A stretch of DNA of 64,000 nt from Syntrophomonadaceae bacterium (GCA_007119965.1 SKOR01000037.1:32595-96594), one strand, 5' to 3'. Numbered from the stretch's first letter, positions 2,668-55,747 are shown. The notes: a model not told the origin generated them from the letters alone. Translations and numbers: made by a program.

Positions 2668-2741
2668 TGCGGGATGGTGTAGCGGTAGCACGGATGACTC
2701 TGACTCATCAAGCCTAGGTTCGATCCCTAGTCCCGCAGCCA
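2668..2741 (+). tRNA. tRNA-Gln (anticodon CUG)
   Basis: Folded by hand. Acceptor stem UGCGGGA/UCCCGCA with a U1-A72 pair and G73 discriminator, typical of bacterial tRNA-Gln. D-stem GUGU/GCAC. Anticodon stem GAUGA/UCAUC with loop CUCUGAC, giving anticodon CUG. T-arm CUAGG-UUCGAUC-CCUAG. An encoded CCA follows. Confidence 0.85.
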
Positions 2742-52016: not shown

Positions 52017-52475
52017 CTAAGAAAGGTTGGGATAGCCCTGCTGCCGCAGCGCTTCGTAGAGGACAACGGCTACCGAATTGCCCATATTCAGGGAACGCGG
52101 GATCTGCTCTACCATGGGTATGCGCACAGTTTTTGCAGCCTGGGCCAGTATTTCCGGCGCCAGGCCCCTGGTTTCACTGCCGAAAACCAGGAAATCGTCG
52201 GGTTGATAGGCTATTTGATGATAATAGGTTTTACCCTTCGTTGAAAAACAGAACAGGCGAGCCTGCGGGTACGCCTCCCTGAGATCCCGGAAATCGGGGT
52301 GCACTTCCAGATCAAGATATTTCCAGTAGTCGAGGCCGGAGCGGCGCACCCGGCTCTCCGAAAGAGAAAACCCGAGCGGTTCAACCAGGTGCAGTTTTGT
52401 TCCCGTCATCACGCAGGTCCGGGCGACATTCCCCGTGTTGGGGGGTATTTCAGGCTCAACAAGGACTAAGTGCAT
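52017..52475 (-). CDS. trmL: tRNA (cytidine/uridine-2'-O)-methyltransferase TrmL (SpoU class)
   Basis: 152-aa protein. N-terminus HLVLVEPEIPPNTGNVARTC is a SPOUT motif. Confidence 0.85.
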   Translation of the reverse strand: MHLVLVEPEIPPNTGNVARTCVMTGTKLHLVEPLGFSLSESRVRRSGLDYWKYLDLEVHPDFRDLREAYPQARLFCFSTKGKTYYHQIAYQPDDFLVFGSETRGLAPEILAQAAKTVRIPMVEQIPRSLNMGNSVAVVLYEALRQQGYPNLS

Positions 52476-52575: not shown

Positions 52576-54987
52576 TTACCCGCGTTCGTTATTGTCCTCG
52601 TCACTTTCCCTGCGCAGCGTTTCATTGAAATGTTTCAGCCTGGCGAGAACTTTTTCGTTAAAGCTGCCTTCAGGGAAGGCCCCCTCTGCGGAAACTTCGC
52701 CTGCCTCCAGGCCCGACAAGAGTTCCAGGCCTTCTGATACCGTTTTTATAGTGTAAATATTAAACTGTTCACTGGCAACAGCTTCAACTACCTCTTTTTT
52801 AAGCATCAGGCTTTTTTGGTTTTGTTCAGGGATAATGACACCCTGCTTTCCGGTAAGCCCCAGTTCCTTGCAGGCCATGAAATAGCCTTCTATTTTACTG
52901 TTTACACCGCCAACGGGCTGGATTTCGCCTTTCTGGTTAACCGACCCGGTAACTGCGAGGTCCTGGCGCAGCGGCACTTCTGCCAGGCTTGAAAGAAGGC
53001 TGAACAGTTCAGCGGCTGAAGCGCTGTCACCATCAACACCGCCGTAAGACTGCTCGAAGCAGAGGCTGGCGGTCAGGTTAAGCGGTACCAGCGAGCCGTA
53101 GCGCATCCCGAGGTAACCGCTTAATATCAGGACTCCCTTGTTATGAATCCGGCCGCTCAGCTCGCTTTCCCGCTCAATGTTGATTATCCCCTTGCGGCCG
53201 AGGTAGGTTGAAGCGGTAATCCGTGACGGCCGCCCAAAGCGGTAGTCACCCTGGTCCAGGACCGAGAGGGCGTTAACCTGCCCAACCGTTTCGCCTTCAA
53301 AATCGAGTAGAATCTGCCCTTCCCTGATTAATTCAATTACTTTCTGCTCATACTTGTTGGAACGGTACACTATTTCTTCCAGGGCTTTTTCTACCTGCTT
53401 TTTACCGACAACATCGACGCCGTCTATATCCGCCCAGGCGTCGGCTTCAAACAGAAGATCAACAATTTCGTTGAAGCGGGTACTCAGTTTATCCTGGTGC
53501 TCCGCCAGTCGCGAACTGTACTCCACGATCTCCACTACCCCCGGCCGGTCAAAGGGTCGCAGGCCCTGTTCATCGCAGTGAAAAGAGATGAAGCTGGCCA
53601 TTTTGCCGACGTTGTTATTTTCCCGTTCCATTTCAGTATCGAAATCAGCTTTAATTTTAAACAACTTGCGGAAGTCTTCATCATAATGGTAGAGCAGCTG
53701 GTACAACAGGGGTATGCCGATCACGACTACCTTGATATTGAGGGGTATCGGCTGGGGACGCAGTGTAGACATGGCAACCAGGCCGAAATGTTCGCTGATA
53801 TTTTCAATCCTGATTTCGTTAGTCCTTAAAACCCTTTTCAGGACCTGCCAGGACTGGATGCTGGTCAACACATCCCTGGCCTGCAGGATCAGGTAACCGC
53901 CGTTGGCCCGGTGCAGAGAACCGGGTTTAATCATCGAAAAGTCGGTAACCATGGTTCCGAAGCGGTTTTCGTATTCGACCCTGCCCACCAGGTTATAGTA
54001 CGAAGGGTTGGTCTCGTAGATCATCGGGGCCCCACTGGTTTCGCGGTTATCAACCAGCAGGTTAACCCCGTATCGCTTCTCACTCTGTTCCTGGCTTTGC
54101 TGTTGGAGCATAAAAAGCGGGTTTTGCTGTTCATCGTCTTCGCTGCGAAAATCAGCCAGGTTAGACAGGACATCCTCCCGGTACGCTTCCAGGTATTTTT
54201 TTACCTGCGGGTACTGTCCGTATTCTTCGATCAGCTCGCTAAAGAGGTGCCCGATCGCCGCAAGGCCGATCTTGTGATCCAGATCCTTTAACTTCTCCTT
54301 CATCTCTTTTTCCACTTTTTGAATGCGTCTCATTATTTCCATCGCCTTCAGCTGCACTTCGGACGATTTTTTTTCAAGCTCGTCTTTCTTTTCCTGCTCC
54401 AGATTGGCGTAATCTTCCTCGCTGATTTGCTCTCCTTCCTGGAGCGGGATAGTCACAAACCCTGAGCTGGTCCGCTTCAAAGCAAAGCCTTTTTCGGAGG
54501 CAACCTTATTCAGTTCCTCCAGAAGCTCAGATCTTGCTTCCTGGAATTCTTTAAAATATACCGCCTTCTGTCTTTCATAATCTTCGCCTTCAAAAGCCTT
54601 CGGTATATTTTGCTTTAAATCTTCTAGCAGTTCCTCAATGTGCAGGCAGAAATCGTGCCCTTTCCCGGCGGGGAGGTTGAGAGCAATCGGCTCCCCGGGA
54701 TTTTCAAAGTTGTAAACATAAACCCAGTCATCGGGGACCGGTTCATTAGCCGATATTTTTTCTATAATTGATTGGGCGTAGCTCGATTTACCCGTCCCGG
54801 TCAGCCCGGTCATGAATATATTGTAACCGGGGCGTTTAATCCGCAGGCCGAACTCAGTAGCCTTAACGGCTCTCTCCTGGCCGATCATCCCTTCCAGCGG
54901 GGGCACATCTGCTGTAGTTTCAAATGTATTTCCCTCCAGATCGCAGACCAGCCTGAGTTCTTCCACTTTTAATTTTTTCCAATTCAT
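52576..54987 (-). CDS. LonC-type Lon-like protease (AAA_32 ATPase-like domain plus C-terminal S16 Lon protease domain)
   Basis: Walker A GLTGTGKS. A long coiled-coil insertion rich in E/K. C-terminal Lon proteolytic domain with catalytic Ser in GGVDGDSASAAE and Lys in NSKIEG. The ATG at 54987 (MNWKKLKVEEL) has a GGGGAGAA SD and overlaps the nth stop in an ATGA arrangement. Confidence 0.75.
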   Translation of the reverse strand: MNWKKLKVEELRLVCDLEGNTFETTADVPPLEGMIGQERAVKATEFGLRIKRPGYNIFMTGLTGTGKSSYAQSIIEKISANEPVPDDWVYVYNFENPGEPIALNLPAGKGHDFCLHIEELLEDLKQNIPKAFEGEDYERQKAVYFKEFQEARSELLEELNKVASEKGFALKRTSSGFVTIPLQEGEQISEEDYANLEQEKKDELEKKSSEVQLKAMEIMRRIQKVEKEMKEKLKDLDHKIGLAAIGHLFSELIEEYGQYPQVKKYLEAYREDVLSNLADFRSEDDEQQNPLFMLQQQSQEQSEKRYGVNLLVDNRETSGAPMIYETNPSYYNLVGRVEYENRFGTMVTDFSMIKPGSLHRANGGYLILQARDVLTSIQSWQVLKRVLRTNEIRIENISEHFGLVAMSTLRPQPIPLNIKVVVIGIPLLYQLLYHYDEDFRKLFKIKADFDTEMERENNNVGKMASFISFHCDEQGLRPFDRPGVVEIVEYSSRLAEHQDKLSTRFNEIVDLLFEADAWADIDGVDVVGKKQVEKALEEIVYRSNKYEQKVIELIREGQILLDFEGETVGQVNALSVLDQGDYRFGRPSRITASTYLGRKGIINIERESELSGRIHNKGVLILSGYLGMRYGSLVPLNLTASLCFEQSYGGVDGDSASAAELFSLLSSLAEVPLRQDLAVTGSVNQKGEIQPVGGVNSKIEGYFMACKELGLTGKQGVIIPEQNQKSLMLKKEVVEAVASEQFNIYTIKTVSEGLELLSGLEAGEVSAEGAFPEGSFNEKVLARLKHFNETLRRESDEDNNERG

Positions 54988-55649
54988 CAATGTTCTCCCC
55001 TTTCTATGGCATACAAGCAAAGCCCGGCCAGGAAACAACCGGAGCACAGCGGTTTGCGGGCCTTGCATACCGTGCGCCCATGGGCAATTAACCAGTGGTG
55101 GGCATTGGTCCAGTTTTCTACCGGGATCACCTCTTTCAGCTGATCCTCAACGATCCTGACAGATTTCCCGTCAGCAAGGCCCAACCTCCCCGAAACGCGA
55201 AAAACGTGTGTATCAACAGCCAGGGCCGGCTTGCCAAAAGCGCTGCTGATAATCACGTTCGCCGTTTTTCGCCCTACACCGGGCAGTTTAATCAGCTCAT
55301 TAAAATTGTCGGGGATAAGCCCGCCGTACTGCTCTGCAATTATCCTGGCTGCTTCAACCAGGTACCTGCTTTTATGGCGGTAGAGGCCGCAGCTTTTTAA
55401 ATACGGTTCCAACTCTGACGGTTTCATGGCAGACAGGTCGCAAACAGTGGGTGCCGCCTCAAAGAGCCTGGCGGTAATCCTGTTTACCTGCTCGTCTGTT
55501 GTCTGGGCGGAAAGGACTGTAGCGACAAACAGTTGGTACGGGTTGTTAAAAACCAGGGCTGTTTTGGCCTGCGGGTAATGGGCAGCAAGCTGTTCTAAAA
55601 TCAGGGCGGCCTGGTTAAAGGTATTTTCTTCTATCGCGGTTTTTACCAT
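54987..55649 (-). CDS. nth: Endonuclease III (DNA glycosylase/AP lyase)
   Basis: HhH-GPD motif (LPGVGRKTANVI) and C-terminal 4Fe-4S cluster Cys (C-x6-C-x2-C-x5-C). Confidence 0.9.
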   Translation of the reverse strand: MVKTAIEENTFNQAALILEQLAAHYPQAKTALVFNNPYQLFVATVLSAQTTDEQVNRITARLFEAAPTVCDLSAMKPSELEPYLKSCGLYRHKSRYLVEAARIIAEQYGGLIPDNFNELIKLPGVGRKTANVIISSAFGKPALAVDTHVFRVSGRLGLADGKSVRIVEDQLKEVIPVENWTNAHHWLIAHGRTVCKARKPLCSGCFLAGLCLYAIERGEH

Positions 55650-55747
55650 AATTAATTATAGATCGGGAAACCGGCAAGGTAAAGGGCAATCAGGCCTTCT
55701 GTCCGGCTGCCCCTTTTTTTCGTAAACTGCAAGCAGGGCGGGGCTCT

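What the first reader, a model, noticed from the sequence alone, without database searches (positions are those of the whole stretch)
52576..55649. LonC-type (AAA_32 plus Lon_C) protease gene sharing an ATGA start/stop overlap with nth
An 803-aa protein combines a Walker-A-containing, coiled-coil-interrupted AAA-like domain with a Lon S16 protease domain carrying the Ser (GDSASAA) and Lys (KIEG) dyad. This is the architecture of the poorly understood LonC group. It lacks the N-domain of LonA and the TM anchor of LonB. Its start codon overlaps the stop of endonuclease III, implying translational coupling of a DNA-repair glycosylase with an unfoldase/protease.
Basis: partly seen in the sequence, partly recalled or inferred. 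Interest (0 to 1): 0.5.

Follow-up and report, generated by a model that had tools for sequence, protein, structure and literature searches.

The report
LonC-type protease gene downstream of nth
This is an ordinary member of the known LonC family of Lon-like proteases, predicted to work without ATP, and its tight pairing with the DNA-repair gene nth is a gene-order habit of one bacterial lineage, not a general partnership.

Summary
The observation mostly holds. On the minus strand, nth (55649..54987, 220 aa) is followed by an 803-aa gene (54987..52576). That gene carries AAA_32, LonB_AAA-LID, LonC_helical and Lon_C domains. It aligns end to end with Meiothermus taiwanensis LonC (E 1e-97, 34% identity).

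One correction: the junction is TGATG, a one-base overlap, not ATGA.

All sequence hallmarks of LonC are present:
- the GDS-A-S / KIEG catalytic dyad;
- both LonC-specific insertions (CKELGLTG and VVEAV);
- a charged helical-hairpin insertion in place of a membrane anchor.

The P-loop looks canonical (GLTGTGKS). The Walker B Asp-Glu pair, however, is Gln-Ala. Gln is invariant in 121 close homologues, and Glu never occurs among the 150 family representatives aligned with the query and MtaLonC. About half of these sequences have Arg instead of the P-loop Lys. I therefore predict an ATP-independent protease/holdase, not an unfoldase.

The nth-lonC adjacency occurs in 48 of 48 related genomes (lonC 61-87% identical) and is driven by a strikingly conserved promoter that abuts the nth ATG. 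It is nearly absent elsewhere: 1 of 80 diverse LonC loci has an nth-like gene nearby. It is lineage-specific operon synteny. The gene is a new member of a known kind, of low interest.

The parts
52576..54987 (-). lonC: 803-aa LonC-type Lon-like protease (ATG 54987-54985, TAA stop ending at 52576)
   Evidence: ORF. Pfam AAA_32, LonB_AAA-LID, LonC_helical and Lon_C. Full-length alignment to MtaLonC 4fwd, E 1.1e-97. Homologues align from residue 1.
54781..54807 (-). P-loop / Walker A-like motif GLTGTGKSS (residues 61-69)
   Evidence: Aligns with the MtaLonC P-loop GPPSLGKHE. The family pattern is GxxGxG[K/R], with K 72 and R 77 of 152 sequences.
54073..54627 (-). Helical-hairpin extension (HHE), residues about 121-305, inserted between the P-loop and the Walker B-like strand. 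It is rich in E, K and Q.
   Evidence: Pfam LonC_helical matches residues 87-120, immediately upstream of the insertion. Composition and lack of a TM segment. The AF2 model shows long helices 109-165 and 198-255 with a beta-hairpin at 168-183, at pLDDT 74-87. MtaLonC HHE description in PMC13069640.
53872..53898 (-). Degenerate Walker B-like strand GYLILQARD (residues 364-372). Gln369 and Ala370 stand in place of Asp-Glu.
   Evidence: Aligns with MtaLonC GYLILDALS. Q369 is present in 121/121 and A370 in 120/121 close homologues. Family-wide, position 370 is Ala in 118/152 and never Glu.
53023..53025 (-). Codon of the catalytic Ser655 (GDS*AS, Asp before Ser as in LonB and LonC)
   Evidence: Aligns with MtaLonC S582. 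GDSAS occurs in 137/152 family sequences and 120/121 close homologues.
52849..52896 (-). Catalytic Lys698 (KIEG) plus LonC-specific insertion 1, C706-KELGLT-G713 (CX3GLXG)
   Evidence: Aligns with MtaLonC K625 and the CKALGLSG insertion. The consensus is defined in PMC3391209 section 5.
52777..52791 (-). LonC-specific insertion 2, V733-VEA-V737 (phi-X2-A-phi)
   Evidence: Aligns with MtaLonC VLEAV. The consensus comes from PMC3391209. It is conserved in close homologues.
54985..55006 (-). nth/lonC junction: SD AAAGGGGAG, a 7-nt spacer, and TGATG (stop and start share base 54987)
   Evidence: Sequence read directly. The same -1 overlap type occurs in 10 related loci, and overlaps or gaps of -26 to +8 nt occur in all 29 loci of the clade with lonC at least 73% identical.
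54987..55649 (-). nth: endonuclease III, 220 aa
   Evidence: NCBIfam TIGR01083, 256.8 bits against a cut-off of 211.7. Pfam HhH-GPD, HHH and EndIII_4Fe-2S.
55655..55683 (-). Promoter TTTACC-17-TATAAT ending 5 nt before the nth ATG, with no SD. This predicts a leaderless nth-lonC transcript.
   Evidence: Consensus scan, 10 of 12 matches. CTTTACC / TATAAT / 5 nt / ATG is invariant in position in 14 related loci, while the spacer and flanks vary.
52017..52475 (-). TrmL-like SpoU tRNA methyltransferase, 100 nt downstream of lonC on the same strand; possibly co-transcribed
   Evidence: Pfam SpoU_methylase 1.7e-33. TIGR00185, 179 bits (cut-off 190.6). No terminator-like site on the minus strand in the spacer. 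The spacer fold has z -0.74. trmL lies downstream of lonC, immediately so in most cases, in 35 loci of the first scan.

Best explanation
The 803-aa gene encodes a soluble LonC-subfamily protease. It has a Ser655-Lys698 S16 protease domain fused to a degenerate AAA+-like module. That module is interrupted by a long charged helical-hairpin extension.

By analogy with MtaLonC it should form ring oligomers. The hairpins would build a basket that captures unfolded polypeptides (holdase/chaperone activity) and feeds them to the chamber without ATP-driven unfolding. The conserved P-loop would bind phosphate or nucleotide as an assembly or activation ligand rather than as fuel. All of this is inference.

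In this lineage the gene is the second cistron of an nth-lonC(-trmL?) operon. A conserved sigma-70-type promoter abuts the nth ATG, so the transcript probably starts leaderless. lonC is translated from its own strong SD embedded in the last codons of nth, and its ATG shares one base with the nth stop.

The pairing with nth is inherited operon synteny of one Bacillota lineage (Dethiobacteria-like soda-lake and subsurface MAGs). It is not a family-wide functional partnership. At most it reflects co-expression of two housekeeping damage-control functions.

Shown: gene structure, domains, motifs, family membership at the sequence level, synteny statistics and promoter conservation. Inferred: ATP independence, oligomeric mechanism, leaderless start and co-transcription.
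For: Domains: Pfam AAA_32, LonB_AAA-LID, LonC_helical and Lon_C.

Homology: full-length alignment to MtaLonC, E 1.1e-97, 34% identity overall and 49% in the protease domain.

LonC hallmarks: both LonC-specific insertions and the Asp-Ser motif are present (definitions in PMC3391209 via and PMC9569914).

ATPase motifs:
- The Walker B pair is Gln369-Ala370. It is invariant or nearly so in 121 close homologues.
- Among 152 aligned family sequences, position 370 is never Glu, position 369 is variable, and the P-loop Lys is Arg in 77.
- MtaLonC has no ATPase activity, and only phosphate is seen in its P-loop (PMC3391209; PMC13069640).

Hairpin extension: the AF2 secondary structure shows long helices plus a beta-hairpin at moderate confidence.

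Operon:
- TGATG junction with an SD.
- No promoter-like site on the minus strand inside nth.
- The promoter CTTTACC-17-TATAAT-5-ATG is conserved in 14 loci.
- nth lies immediately upstream in 48/48 loci with lonC 61-87% identical.

Lineage specificity:
- nth lies within 4 kb in only 5 of 28 more distant genome loci.
- nth occurs in 1 of 80 diverse metagenomic loci, on the opposite strand.
- No conserved neighbour exists family-wide.
Against: - The P-loop here is more canonical (GxxGxGKS) than in MtaLonC (GPPSLGKH). Arg440 (DEDFRKLF) sits where an Arg finger might be. Some nucleotide-dependent behaviour therefore cannot be excluded from sequence alone.
- I could not obtain a residue-level alignment to an active LonB, so sensor-1, sensor-2 and the Arg finger are not rigorously mapped.
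- The AF2 model is poor overall (mean pLDDT 52.7) and gives no independent structural confirmation of the AAA core.
- Promoter, leaderless start and co-transcription rest on sequence patterns only.
- nth reappears near lonC in a different arrangement in Halobacteroidaceae, and ogt sits upstream of lonC in some Bacilli. Pure synteny by descent explains this less comfortably.
Confidence: 0.8

Rival explanations
1. It is an ATP-dependent LonB-like unfoldase-protease. The intact Walker A would bind and hydrolyse ATP to unfold and translocate substrates, as the first reader's 'unfoldase/protease' implies.
For: - Canonical-looking P-loop GLTGTGKSS.
- AAA_32 and LonB_AAA-LID domains.
- Second-best solved relative is the ATP-dependent T. 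onnurineus LonB 3k1j, E 1.5e-29.
- Arg440 is conserved in the close clade.
- Public annotations call relatives 'lon-related putative ATP-dependent protease' or 'ATP-binding protein'.
Against: - The Walker B Asp-Glu is Gln-Ala. Gln is found in 121/121 close homologues.
- No sequence among 152 has Glu at that position.
- Half of these sequences have Arg for the P-loop Lys, and the residue after K/R is variable.
- The sensor-1-like position is Ile here and variable family-wide.
- NCBIfam LonB TIGR00764 scores 150 bits against a cut-off of 516.6.
- There is no TM anchor.
- The characterised homologue MtaLonC has no ATPase activity.
Confidence: 0.08
2. LonC is a dedicated partner of base-repair enzymes. 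Co-expressed with Nth, it would control Nth levels or dispose of covalently trapped or spent repair proteins. Examples are Nth-DNA Schiff-base crosslinks here and alkylated Ogt in other lineages.
For: - nth is immediately upstream in 48/48 loci of the lineage, and this pair outlasts the flanking CoA-transferase and trmL genes.
- nth lies about 650-700 nt downstream of lonC in four Halobacteroidaceae loci with otherwise different flanks.
- nth lies 1 kb upstream in L069.
- An O6-alkylguanine-DNA alkyltransferase gene (PF01035 1.9e-32, PCHR motif) lies 164-179 nt upstream of lonC on the same strand in three Bacilli loci.
- LonA has been reported to clear proteins from DNA (preprint 10.1101/317677, abstract seen).
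Against: - In 80 diverse LonC loci, nth occurs once (34% identical, opposite strand, 1.4 kb away) and ogt never.
- No conserved neighbour exists at all.
- The lineage conserves the whole CoAT-nth-lonC-trmL-AI2E block, as expected from vertical synteny.
- The Halobacteroidaceae and Dethiobacter contexts share a rhodanese-like neighbour. They may therefore be rearranged descendants of one ancestral block rather than independent events.
- With roughly 15 independent contexts, two or three repair-gene neighbours is close to the chance expectation. This is my estimate, not a formal test.
- No DNA-binding domain was detected in LonC.
Confidence: 0.07
3. It is a component of a phage-defence or mobile system with a Lon-like protease, such as BREX BrxL.
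For: BREX systems are known to include Lon-like proteases (a paper listed). There is a weak PADLOC hit of the P-loop region to mad8, E 1e-5 and 23 bits.
Against: - No BrxL or other defence-protease model matched.
- The neighbours are housekeeping genes: nth, trmL, a CoA-transferase, an AI-2E transporter and dnaE.
- The locus is stably syntenic across a lineage.
- The nth hit to the PADLOC 'Type II nicking endonuclease' model most likely reflects shared ancestry of that model with the HhH-GPD glycosylase fold (my interpretation, not tested).
Confidence: 0.01

Closest known systems
Meiothermus taiwanensis LonC (MtaLonC; PDB 4fwd, 4fw9, 7euy, 8k8v; MEROPS S16.007) and Thermus thermophilus TTC1975
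   Same: - Collinear full-length homology (E 1e-97, residues 15-761 against 12-688).
- Same domain order: N-terminal extension, P-loop, helical-hairpin extension, Walker B-like strand, LID, S16 protease.
- Ser-Lys dyad with Asp before Ser.
- Both LonC-specific insertions (CX3GLXG and phi-X2-A-phi).
- No catalytic Walker B Glu.
- No TM anchor and no LonA N-domain.
   Different: - Only 34% identical overall (24% in the hairpin extension, 49% in the protease).
- The aligned region spans about 70 more residues (15-761 against 12-688); 46 residues of the hairpin extension have no MtaLonC counterpart.
- The P-loop is canonical GLTGTGKS rather than GPPSLGKH.
- The Walker B Asp is also lost (Gln369), whereas MtaLonC keeps Asp.
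- Arg440 is present where MtaLonC has Ser.
- The host is a mesophilic or alkaliphilic Bacillota-type lineage rather than Deinococcus-Thermus (record titles).
- The gene is embedded in an nth operon.
Archaeal LonB (Thermococcus onnurineus TonLonB, PDB 3k1j; NCBIfam TIGR00764)
   Same: - AAA_32 and LonB_AAA-LID domains plus a B-type protease domain with Asp-Ser.
- No LonA N-domain.
- Significant similarity over residues 309-757 (E 1.5e-29).
   Different: - LonB has a membrane anchor inserted between Walker A and Walker B, and it is an active ATPase with Asp-Glu.
- Here the insertion is a charged helical hairpin and the Walker B pair is Gln-Ala.
- TIGR00764 scores 150 bits against a cut-off of 516.6.
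LonA (E. coli Lon, B. subtilis LonA, LONP1)
   Same: S16 Ser-Lys protease domain (E about 1e-5 to 1e-6 against LonA structures) and a chambered ring architecture.
   Different: - LonA has a large substrate- and DNA-binding N-domain, a Pro before the catalytic Ser, and a fully active AAA+ motor.
- None of these is present here (PMC9569914).
NCBIfam TIGR02903 'spore_lon_C' (endospore-former Lon-family protease)
   Same: It shares only the C-terminal Lon protease domain (residues 649-737).
   Different: This is a name collision, not the MEROPS LonC. The score is 47.7 bits against a cut-off of 678.8.

Membership tests
LonC subfamily (MEROPS S16.007; Liao et al. 2012, PMC3391209) | C-terminal S16 Lon protease domain with a Ser-Lys dyad | tested here: met
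   Pfam Lon_C 6.1e-10. S655 and K698 align with MtaLonC S582 and K625. The dyad is conserved in 137/152 and 124/152 family sequences.
LonC subfamily (MEROPS S16.007; Liao et al. 2012, PMC3391209) | LonC-specific insertion 1, CX3GLX(G/E), after the catalytic-Lys helix | tested here: met
   C706-KEL-GL-T-G713 aligns without gaps to MtaLonC CKALGLSG.
LonC subfamily (MEROPS S16.007; Liao et al. 2012, PMC3391209) | LonC-specific insertion 2, phi-X2-A-phi, in helix alpha5 | tested here: met
   V733-VEA-V737 against MtaLonC VLEAV.
LonC subfamily (MEROPS S16.007; Liao et al. 2012, PMC3391209) | Helical-hairpin extension inserted in the alpha/beta subdomain instead of a TM anchor; no LonA N-domain | tested here: met
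   Pfam LonC_helical 7.3e-14. Residues 121-305 are E/K/Q-rich with no hydrophobic segment. AF2 gives helices 109-165 and 198-255 plus a beta-hairpin at 168-183. The P-loop sits at residue 61, so there is no room for a LonA N-domain.
LonC subfamily (MEROPS S16.007; Liao et al. 2012, PMC3391209) | Degenerate AAA+ motifs (no catalytic Walker B Glu; sensors and Arg finger not conserved) | tested here: met
   Walker B-like GYLILQARD has Gln369 and Ala370. The sensor-1-like position is Ile425. The sensor-2 and Arg-finger mapping is only approximate, because I had no LonB residue alignment.
LonC subfamily (MEROPS S16.007; Liao et al. 2012, PMC3391209) | No ATPase activity; ATP-independent degradation of unfolded substrates | not testable with these tools
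   This is a biochemical property. It is predicted from motifs and from MtaLonC and TTC1975 data.
LonB (archaeal, membrane-bound; TIGR00764) | TM anchor between Walker A and B; intact Walker B Asp-Glu; model score above the cut-off | tested here: not met
   No TM segment in the insertion. Gln-Ala at Walker B. 150.5 bits against a cut-off of 516.6.
LonA | N-terminal LON substrate-binding domain; Pro before the catalytic Ser | tested here: not met
   No N-domain hit. Asp654 precedes Ser655. TIGR00763 scores 32 bits against a cut-off of 608.
BREX BrxL / defence-associated Lon-like proteases | Match to defence-system protein models and a defence gene neighbourhood | tested here: not met
   PADLOC gives only a 23-bit P-loop hit to mad8. 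The neighbours are housekeeping genes.
Translationally coupled nth-lonC operon | Overlapping stop/start, SD within the upstream gene, no internal promoter or terminator, conserved across relatives | tested here: inconclusive
   TGATG junction plus an SD. No minus-strand promoter-like site inside nth; one weak terminator-like hairpin at 55043-55023 without a proper T-run. Overlap or a gap of 8 nt or less in 29/29 loci with lonC at least 73% identical, but spacers of 19-86 nt in most of the 61-72% clade. Transcription and coupling themselves cannot be tested here.

The most novel reading that the evidence does not exclude
In this lineage, and independently in some Halobacteroidaceae and Bacilli, LonC may have been recruited as an ATP-independent disposal protease for base-repair enzymes that end in covalent dead-end states. 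Examples are Nth trapped on DNA as a Schiff-base crosslink and alkylated suicide Ogt. This would be a bacterial analogue of DPC-protease or MGMT turnover pathways. The operon would be wired so that a leaderless, weakly translated nth is followed by an SD-driven lonC.
Probability: 0.06. Interest if true: 0.6.

Novelty: new member of a known kind. Interest (0 to 1): 0.2.

Why it matters
As it stands this is mainly a correct annotation. It moves a gene labelled 'ATP-binding protein' or 'putative ATP-dependent protease' in public records into the LonC subfamily, and it predicts that the protein does not burn ATP.

Two by-products may be useful.

First, a family-wide view. There are 2391 clusters (at 50% identity) with E<=1e-30. 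Among the 150 best representatives the catalytic Glu is never present, and the P-loop Lys/Arg split is about 50:50. This suggests that the ATP-independent, phosphate-binding state seen in MtaLonC is the rule for this large and almost unstudied family.

Second, a strongly conserved promoter abuts the nth start codon. It gives a testable example of a leaderless first cistron followed by an SD-driven, overlap-coupled second cistron in a Bacillota-type lineage.

The in vivo role of LonC remains unknown. The nth linkage offers only a weak, lineage-restricted hint.

Tried and rejected
- AlphaFold2 on the 12-sequence alignment A1 gave a poor model (mean pLDDT 52.7, pTM 0.32). Only the hairpin extension and part of the protease domain were usable, so I ran no fold search. 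Deeper alignments could not be submitted, because only homologous-protein hits (all at least 65% identical) are accepted.
- I could not obtain a residue-level alignment to TonLonB (3k1j). Five LonC entries fill the five alignment slots of the PDB search. Sensor-1, sensor-2 and the Arg finger are therefore mapped only approximately.
- DNA-repair-partner hypothesis: I followed it with a consensus-first profile scan of metagenome contigs. nth occurred in 1 of 80 loci, and ogt and trmL in none, so I rejected it as a family-wide rule.
- A search for a conserved LonC partner gene found none. The largest neighbour cluster is a 286-aa protein (it looks like a tandem universal stress protein by eye; not checked against Pfam) downstream in 7 of 80 loci.
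- PADLOC gave no defence-system membership.
- Rfam found no RNA element near the locus, only a tRNA at 2668-2738.
- The lonC-trmL spacer has no significant structure (z -0.74) and no terminator-like site on the coding strand.
- The 830-aa upstream-extended ORF was rejected, because homologues start at the ATG at 54987.
- A literature search for an nth-Lon or DPC link found nothing specific to LonC.


Full report
**1. Observation**

The region 52576-55649 holds two minus-strand genes.

The first is nth, at 55649..54987 (220 aa). It passes the NCBIfam nth equivalog (256.8 bits against a cut-off of 211.7). It has the HhH-GPD, HHH and EndIII_4Fe-2S Pfam domains. Read directly, it carries the catalytic Lys (LPGVGRKTANV) and a C-X6-C-X2-C-X5-C cluster.

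The second gene runs from 54987 to 52576. The mechanical ORF starts 27 codons further upstream (830 aa).

The junction reads gaa-cat-TGA-TG-aat. The stop and start codons share one base (TGATG), not the four-base ATGA stated. An AAAGGGGAG Shine-Dalgarno sequence lies 7 nt upstream, inside nth.

**2. What the protein is**

Pfam gives AAA_32 (1.4e-56), LonB_AAA-LID (7.8e-25), LonC_helical (7.3e-14) and Lon_C (6.1e-10).

Against solved structures, the best hits are the Meiothermus taiwanensis LonC entries. 4fwd gives E 1.1e-97, with residues 15-761 aligned to 12-688. The archaeal LonB 3k1j follows far behind at 1.5e-29, and LonA structures at about 1e-5. Identity to MtaLonC is 34% overall and 49% in the protease domain.

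The criteria published for LonC (PMC3391209; PMC9569914) are met at the sequence level:
- the Ser655/Lys698 dyad, with Asp before the Ser;
- insertion 1, CX3GLXG, present as CKELGLTG;
- insertion 2, phi-X2-A-phi, present as VVEAV;
- a long insertion between the P-loop and the Walker B-like strand;
- no LonA N-domain.

That insertion (residues 121-305) is rich in E, K and Q and has no TM segment. AF2 models it at moderate confidence as long helices plus a beta-hairpin. This matches the helical-hairpin extension with beta-hairpin hooks described for MtaLonC (PMC13069640).

No NCBIfam equivalog reaches its cut-off. LonB TIGR00764 scores 150 against 516. The unrelated 'spore_lon_C' TIGR02903 scores 48 against 679 and is only a name collision. 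PADLOC gives no defence-system assignment.

**3. ATP dependence**

The P-loop GLTGTGKSS looks canonical, whereas MtaLonC has GPPSLGKHE. The Walker B-like strand is GYLILQARD, so Gln369 and Ala370 stand where an active AAA+ protein has Asp-Glu.

In 121 sequences at least 65% identical, Gln369 is invariant and Ala370 is present in 120.

I aligned 150 representatives of the wider family (39-57% identical) with the query and MtaLonC, 152 sequences in all:
- Position 370 is Ala in 118 and never Glu.
- Position 369 is D 41, Q 29, N 24, E 22, P 12 and H 9.
- The P-loop Lys is Arg in 77 and Lys in 72.
- The residue after K/R is variable.
- The sensor-1-like position is variable, and Ile in the query.

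MtaLonC and TTC1975 have no ATPase activity, and only phosphate is seen in the MtaLonC P-loop.

I therefore predict an ATP-independent protease/holdase whose P-loop binds phosphate or nucleotide as a ligand.

Two caveats apply. I could not align the protein residue by residue with an active LonB. Arg440, conserved in the close clade, might be a vestigial Arg finger.

**4. The nth pairing**

A scan of one genome per species returned 80 loci.

*The close lineage.* In all 48 loci with lonC 61-87% identical and with upstream DNA available, nth lies immediately upstream on the same strand. Most of these are MAGs labelled Syntrophomonadaceae, Bacillota or Dethiobacter, many from soda-lake sediments.
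- In the 29 loci at least 73% identical, the junction ranges from -26 to +8 nt. The commonest type is the same one-base overlap as in the window.
- In the 61-72% clade, the spacers are mostly 19-86 nt (three are 10 nt or less). Several contain GC-rich hairpins without a U-tract, followed by a strong SD.
- The wider block CoA-transferase - nth - lonC - trmL - AI-2E transporter is also largely conserved. nth-lonC is its most persistent pair.

*More distant genomes.* Among 28 loci below 60% identity, nth is within 4 kb in five. Four are Halobacteroidaceae loci where it lies about 650-700 nt downstream, after a small membrane-protein gene. One is L069, where it lies 1 kb upstream. Three Bacilli loci instead have an O6-alkylguanine-DNA alkyltransferase gene 164-179 nt upstream.

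*A family-wide test.* To see whether this reflects a general link with base repair, I built a consensus-first profile and scanned metagenome contigs. In 80 diverse LonC loci (42-53% identical to the query), nth appears once (34% identical, opposite strand), and ogt and trmL never. No neighbour family recurs in more than 7 loci.

The pairing is therefore lineage-specific operon synteny, not a property of LonC or of Clostridia in general.

**5. Expression model**

The consensus scan finds one good promoter on the coding strand. It is TTTACC-17-TATAAT, ending 5 nt before the nth ATG. It finds none inside nth.

The arrangement CTTTACC / 17 nt / TATAAT / 5 nt / ATG is invariant in the window and in all 14 related loci whose nth start is aligned. 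The spacer and flanks diverge. This is a clear phylogenetic footprint.

With no room for a leader or an SD, nth is probably translated from a leaderless mRNA. lonC uses its own SD and the overlapping stop/start.

The 100-nt lonC-trmL spacer has no terminator-like site on the coding strand and no significant structure. trmL may therefore be co-transcribed. None of these expression statements has been tested experimentally.

**6. Comparison, novelty and verdict**

The gene works like, and by sequence criteria is, a LonC. It differs from MtaLonC in four ways:
- a more canonical P-loop;
- loss of the Walker B Asp as well as the Glu;
- a longer hairpin extension;
- its operon context.

The family is large, with 2391 clusters at E<=1e-30, but it has been studied biochemically in only two thermophiles.

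This locus is a new member of a known kind. The one reading with real novelty is LonC as a disposal protease for trapped Nth or spent Ogt. The census does not exclude it within this lineage but gives it little support. I put it at about 6%. Overall interest is low (0.2).

Noticed in passing
window 55655-55683 (minus strand); L001-L009, L031-L037, L045, L050 upstream of nth: The promoter CTTTACC-17 nt-TATAAT sits exactly 5 nt before the nth ATG, with no Shine-Dalgarno sequence. Hexamers and spacing are invariant in 14 related loci while the surrounding sequence varies. This suggests a leaderless nth-lonC mRNA.
   Followed up: partly
L067, L074, L077 (Bacilli / Pseudogracilibacillus), about 170 nt upstream of lonC: An O6-alkylguanine-DNA alkyltransferase gene (PF01035, PCHR motif) lies directly upstream of LonC on the same strand, between pheT and a DUF7309/PRiA4 gene and zapA. 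This is a second small DNA-repair enzyme next to LonC in another lineage.
   Followed up: partly
L065, L071, L078, L079 (Halobacteroidaceae) and L047, L057 (Dethiobacter sp.): A rhodanese-domain protein with a weak P-loop match (about 354 aa; it resembles SelU/MnmH from memory, not tested) is adjacent to lonC in both groups. It is upstream in Halobacteroidaceae and downstream in Dethiobacter. In Halobacteroidaceae the order is M16 peptidase - rhodanese - lonC - small TM protein - nth - gcvT - gcvH.
   Followed up: no
LonC family alignment (150 representatives), query positions 67-69 and 369-372: The P-loop Lys is Arg in about half of the aligned family sequences (77 R against 72 K). The Walker B Glu position is Ala and never Glu. 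An acidic residue three positions later (D/E at query position 372) is conserved in 116 of 152. This pattern does not seem to be described in the LonC papers I read.
   Followed up: partly
L033, L036, L042, L045 nth-lonC spacers (67-86 nt): Two stable GC-rich hairpins (MFE -27 to -37 kcal/mol) without U-tracts sit between nth and lonC in one subclade. They are followed by a GGGAGGAG SD and could be processing, stability or attenuator elements.
   Followed up: no
L093, L100, L102, L103, L123, L125, L149 downstream of lonC: A 286-aa protein that looks like a tandem universal stress protein (judged by eye, not checked against Pfam) is the only recurrent neighbour of LonC in the diverse metagenome sample (7 of 80 loci, same strand).
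   Followed up: no
window 52576-54987 against public annotations and NCBIfam: Relatives are annotated 'ATP-binding protein', 'AAA family ATPase' or 'lon-related putative ATP-dependent protease'. No NCBIfam equivalog covers this family. TIGR02903 'spore_lon_C' is an unrelated family with a confusingly similar name.
   Followed up: yes
window 2668-2738 (+): The only Rfam gathering-threshold hit in the 64-kb window is a tRNA gene.
   Followed up: no
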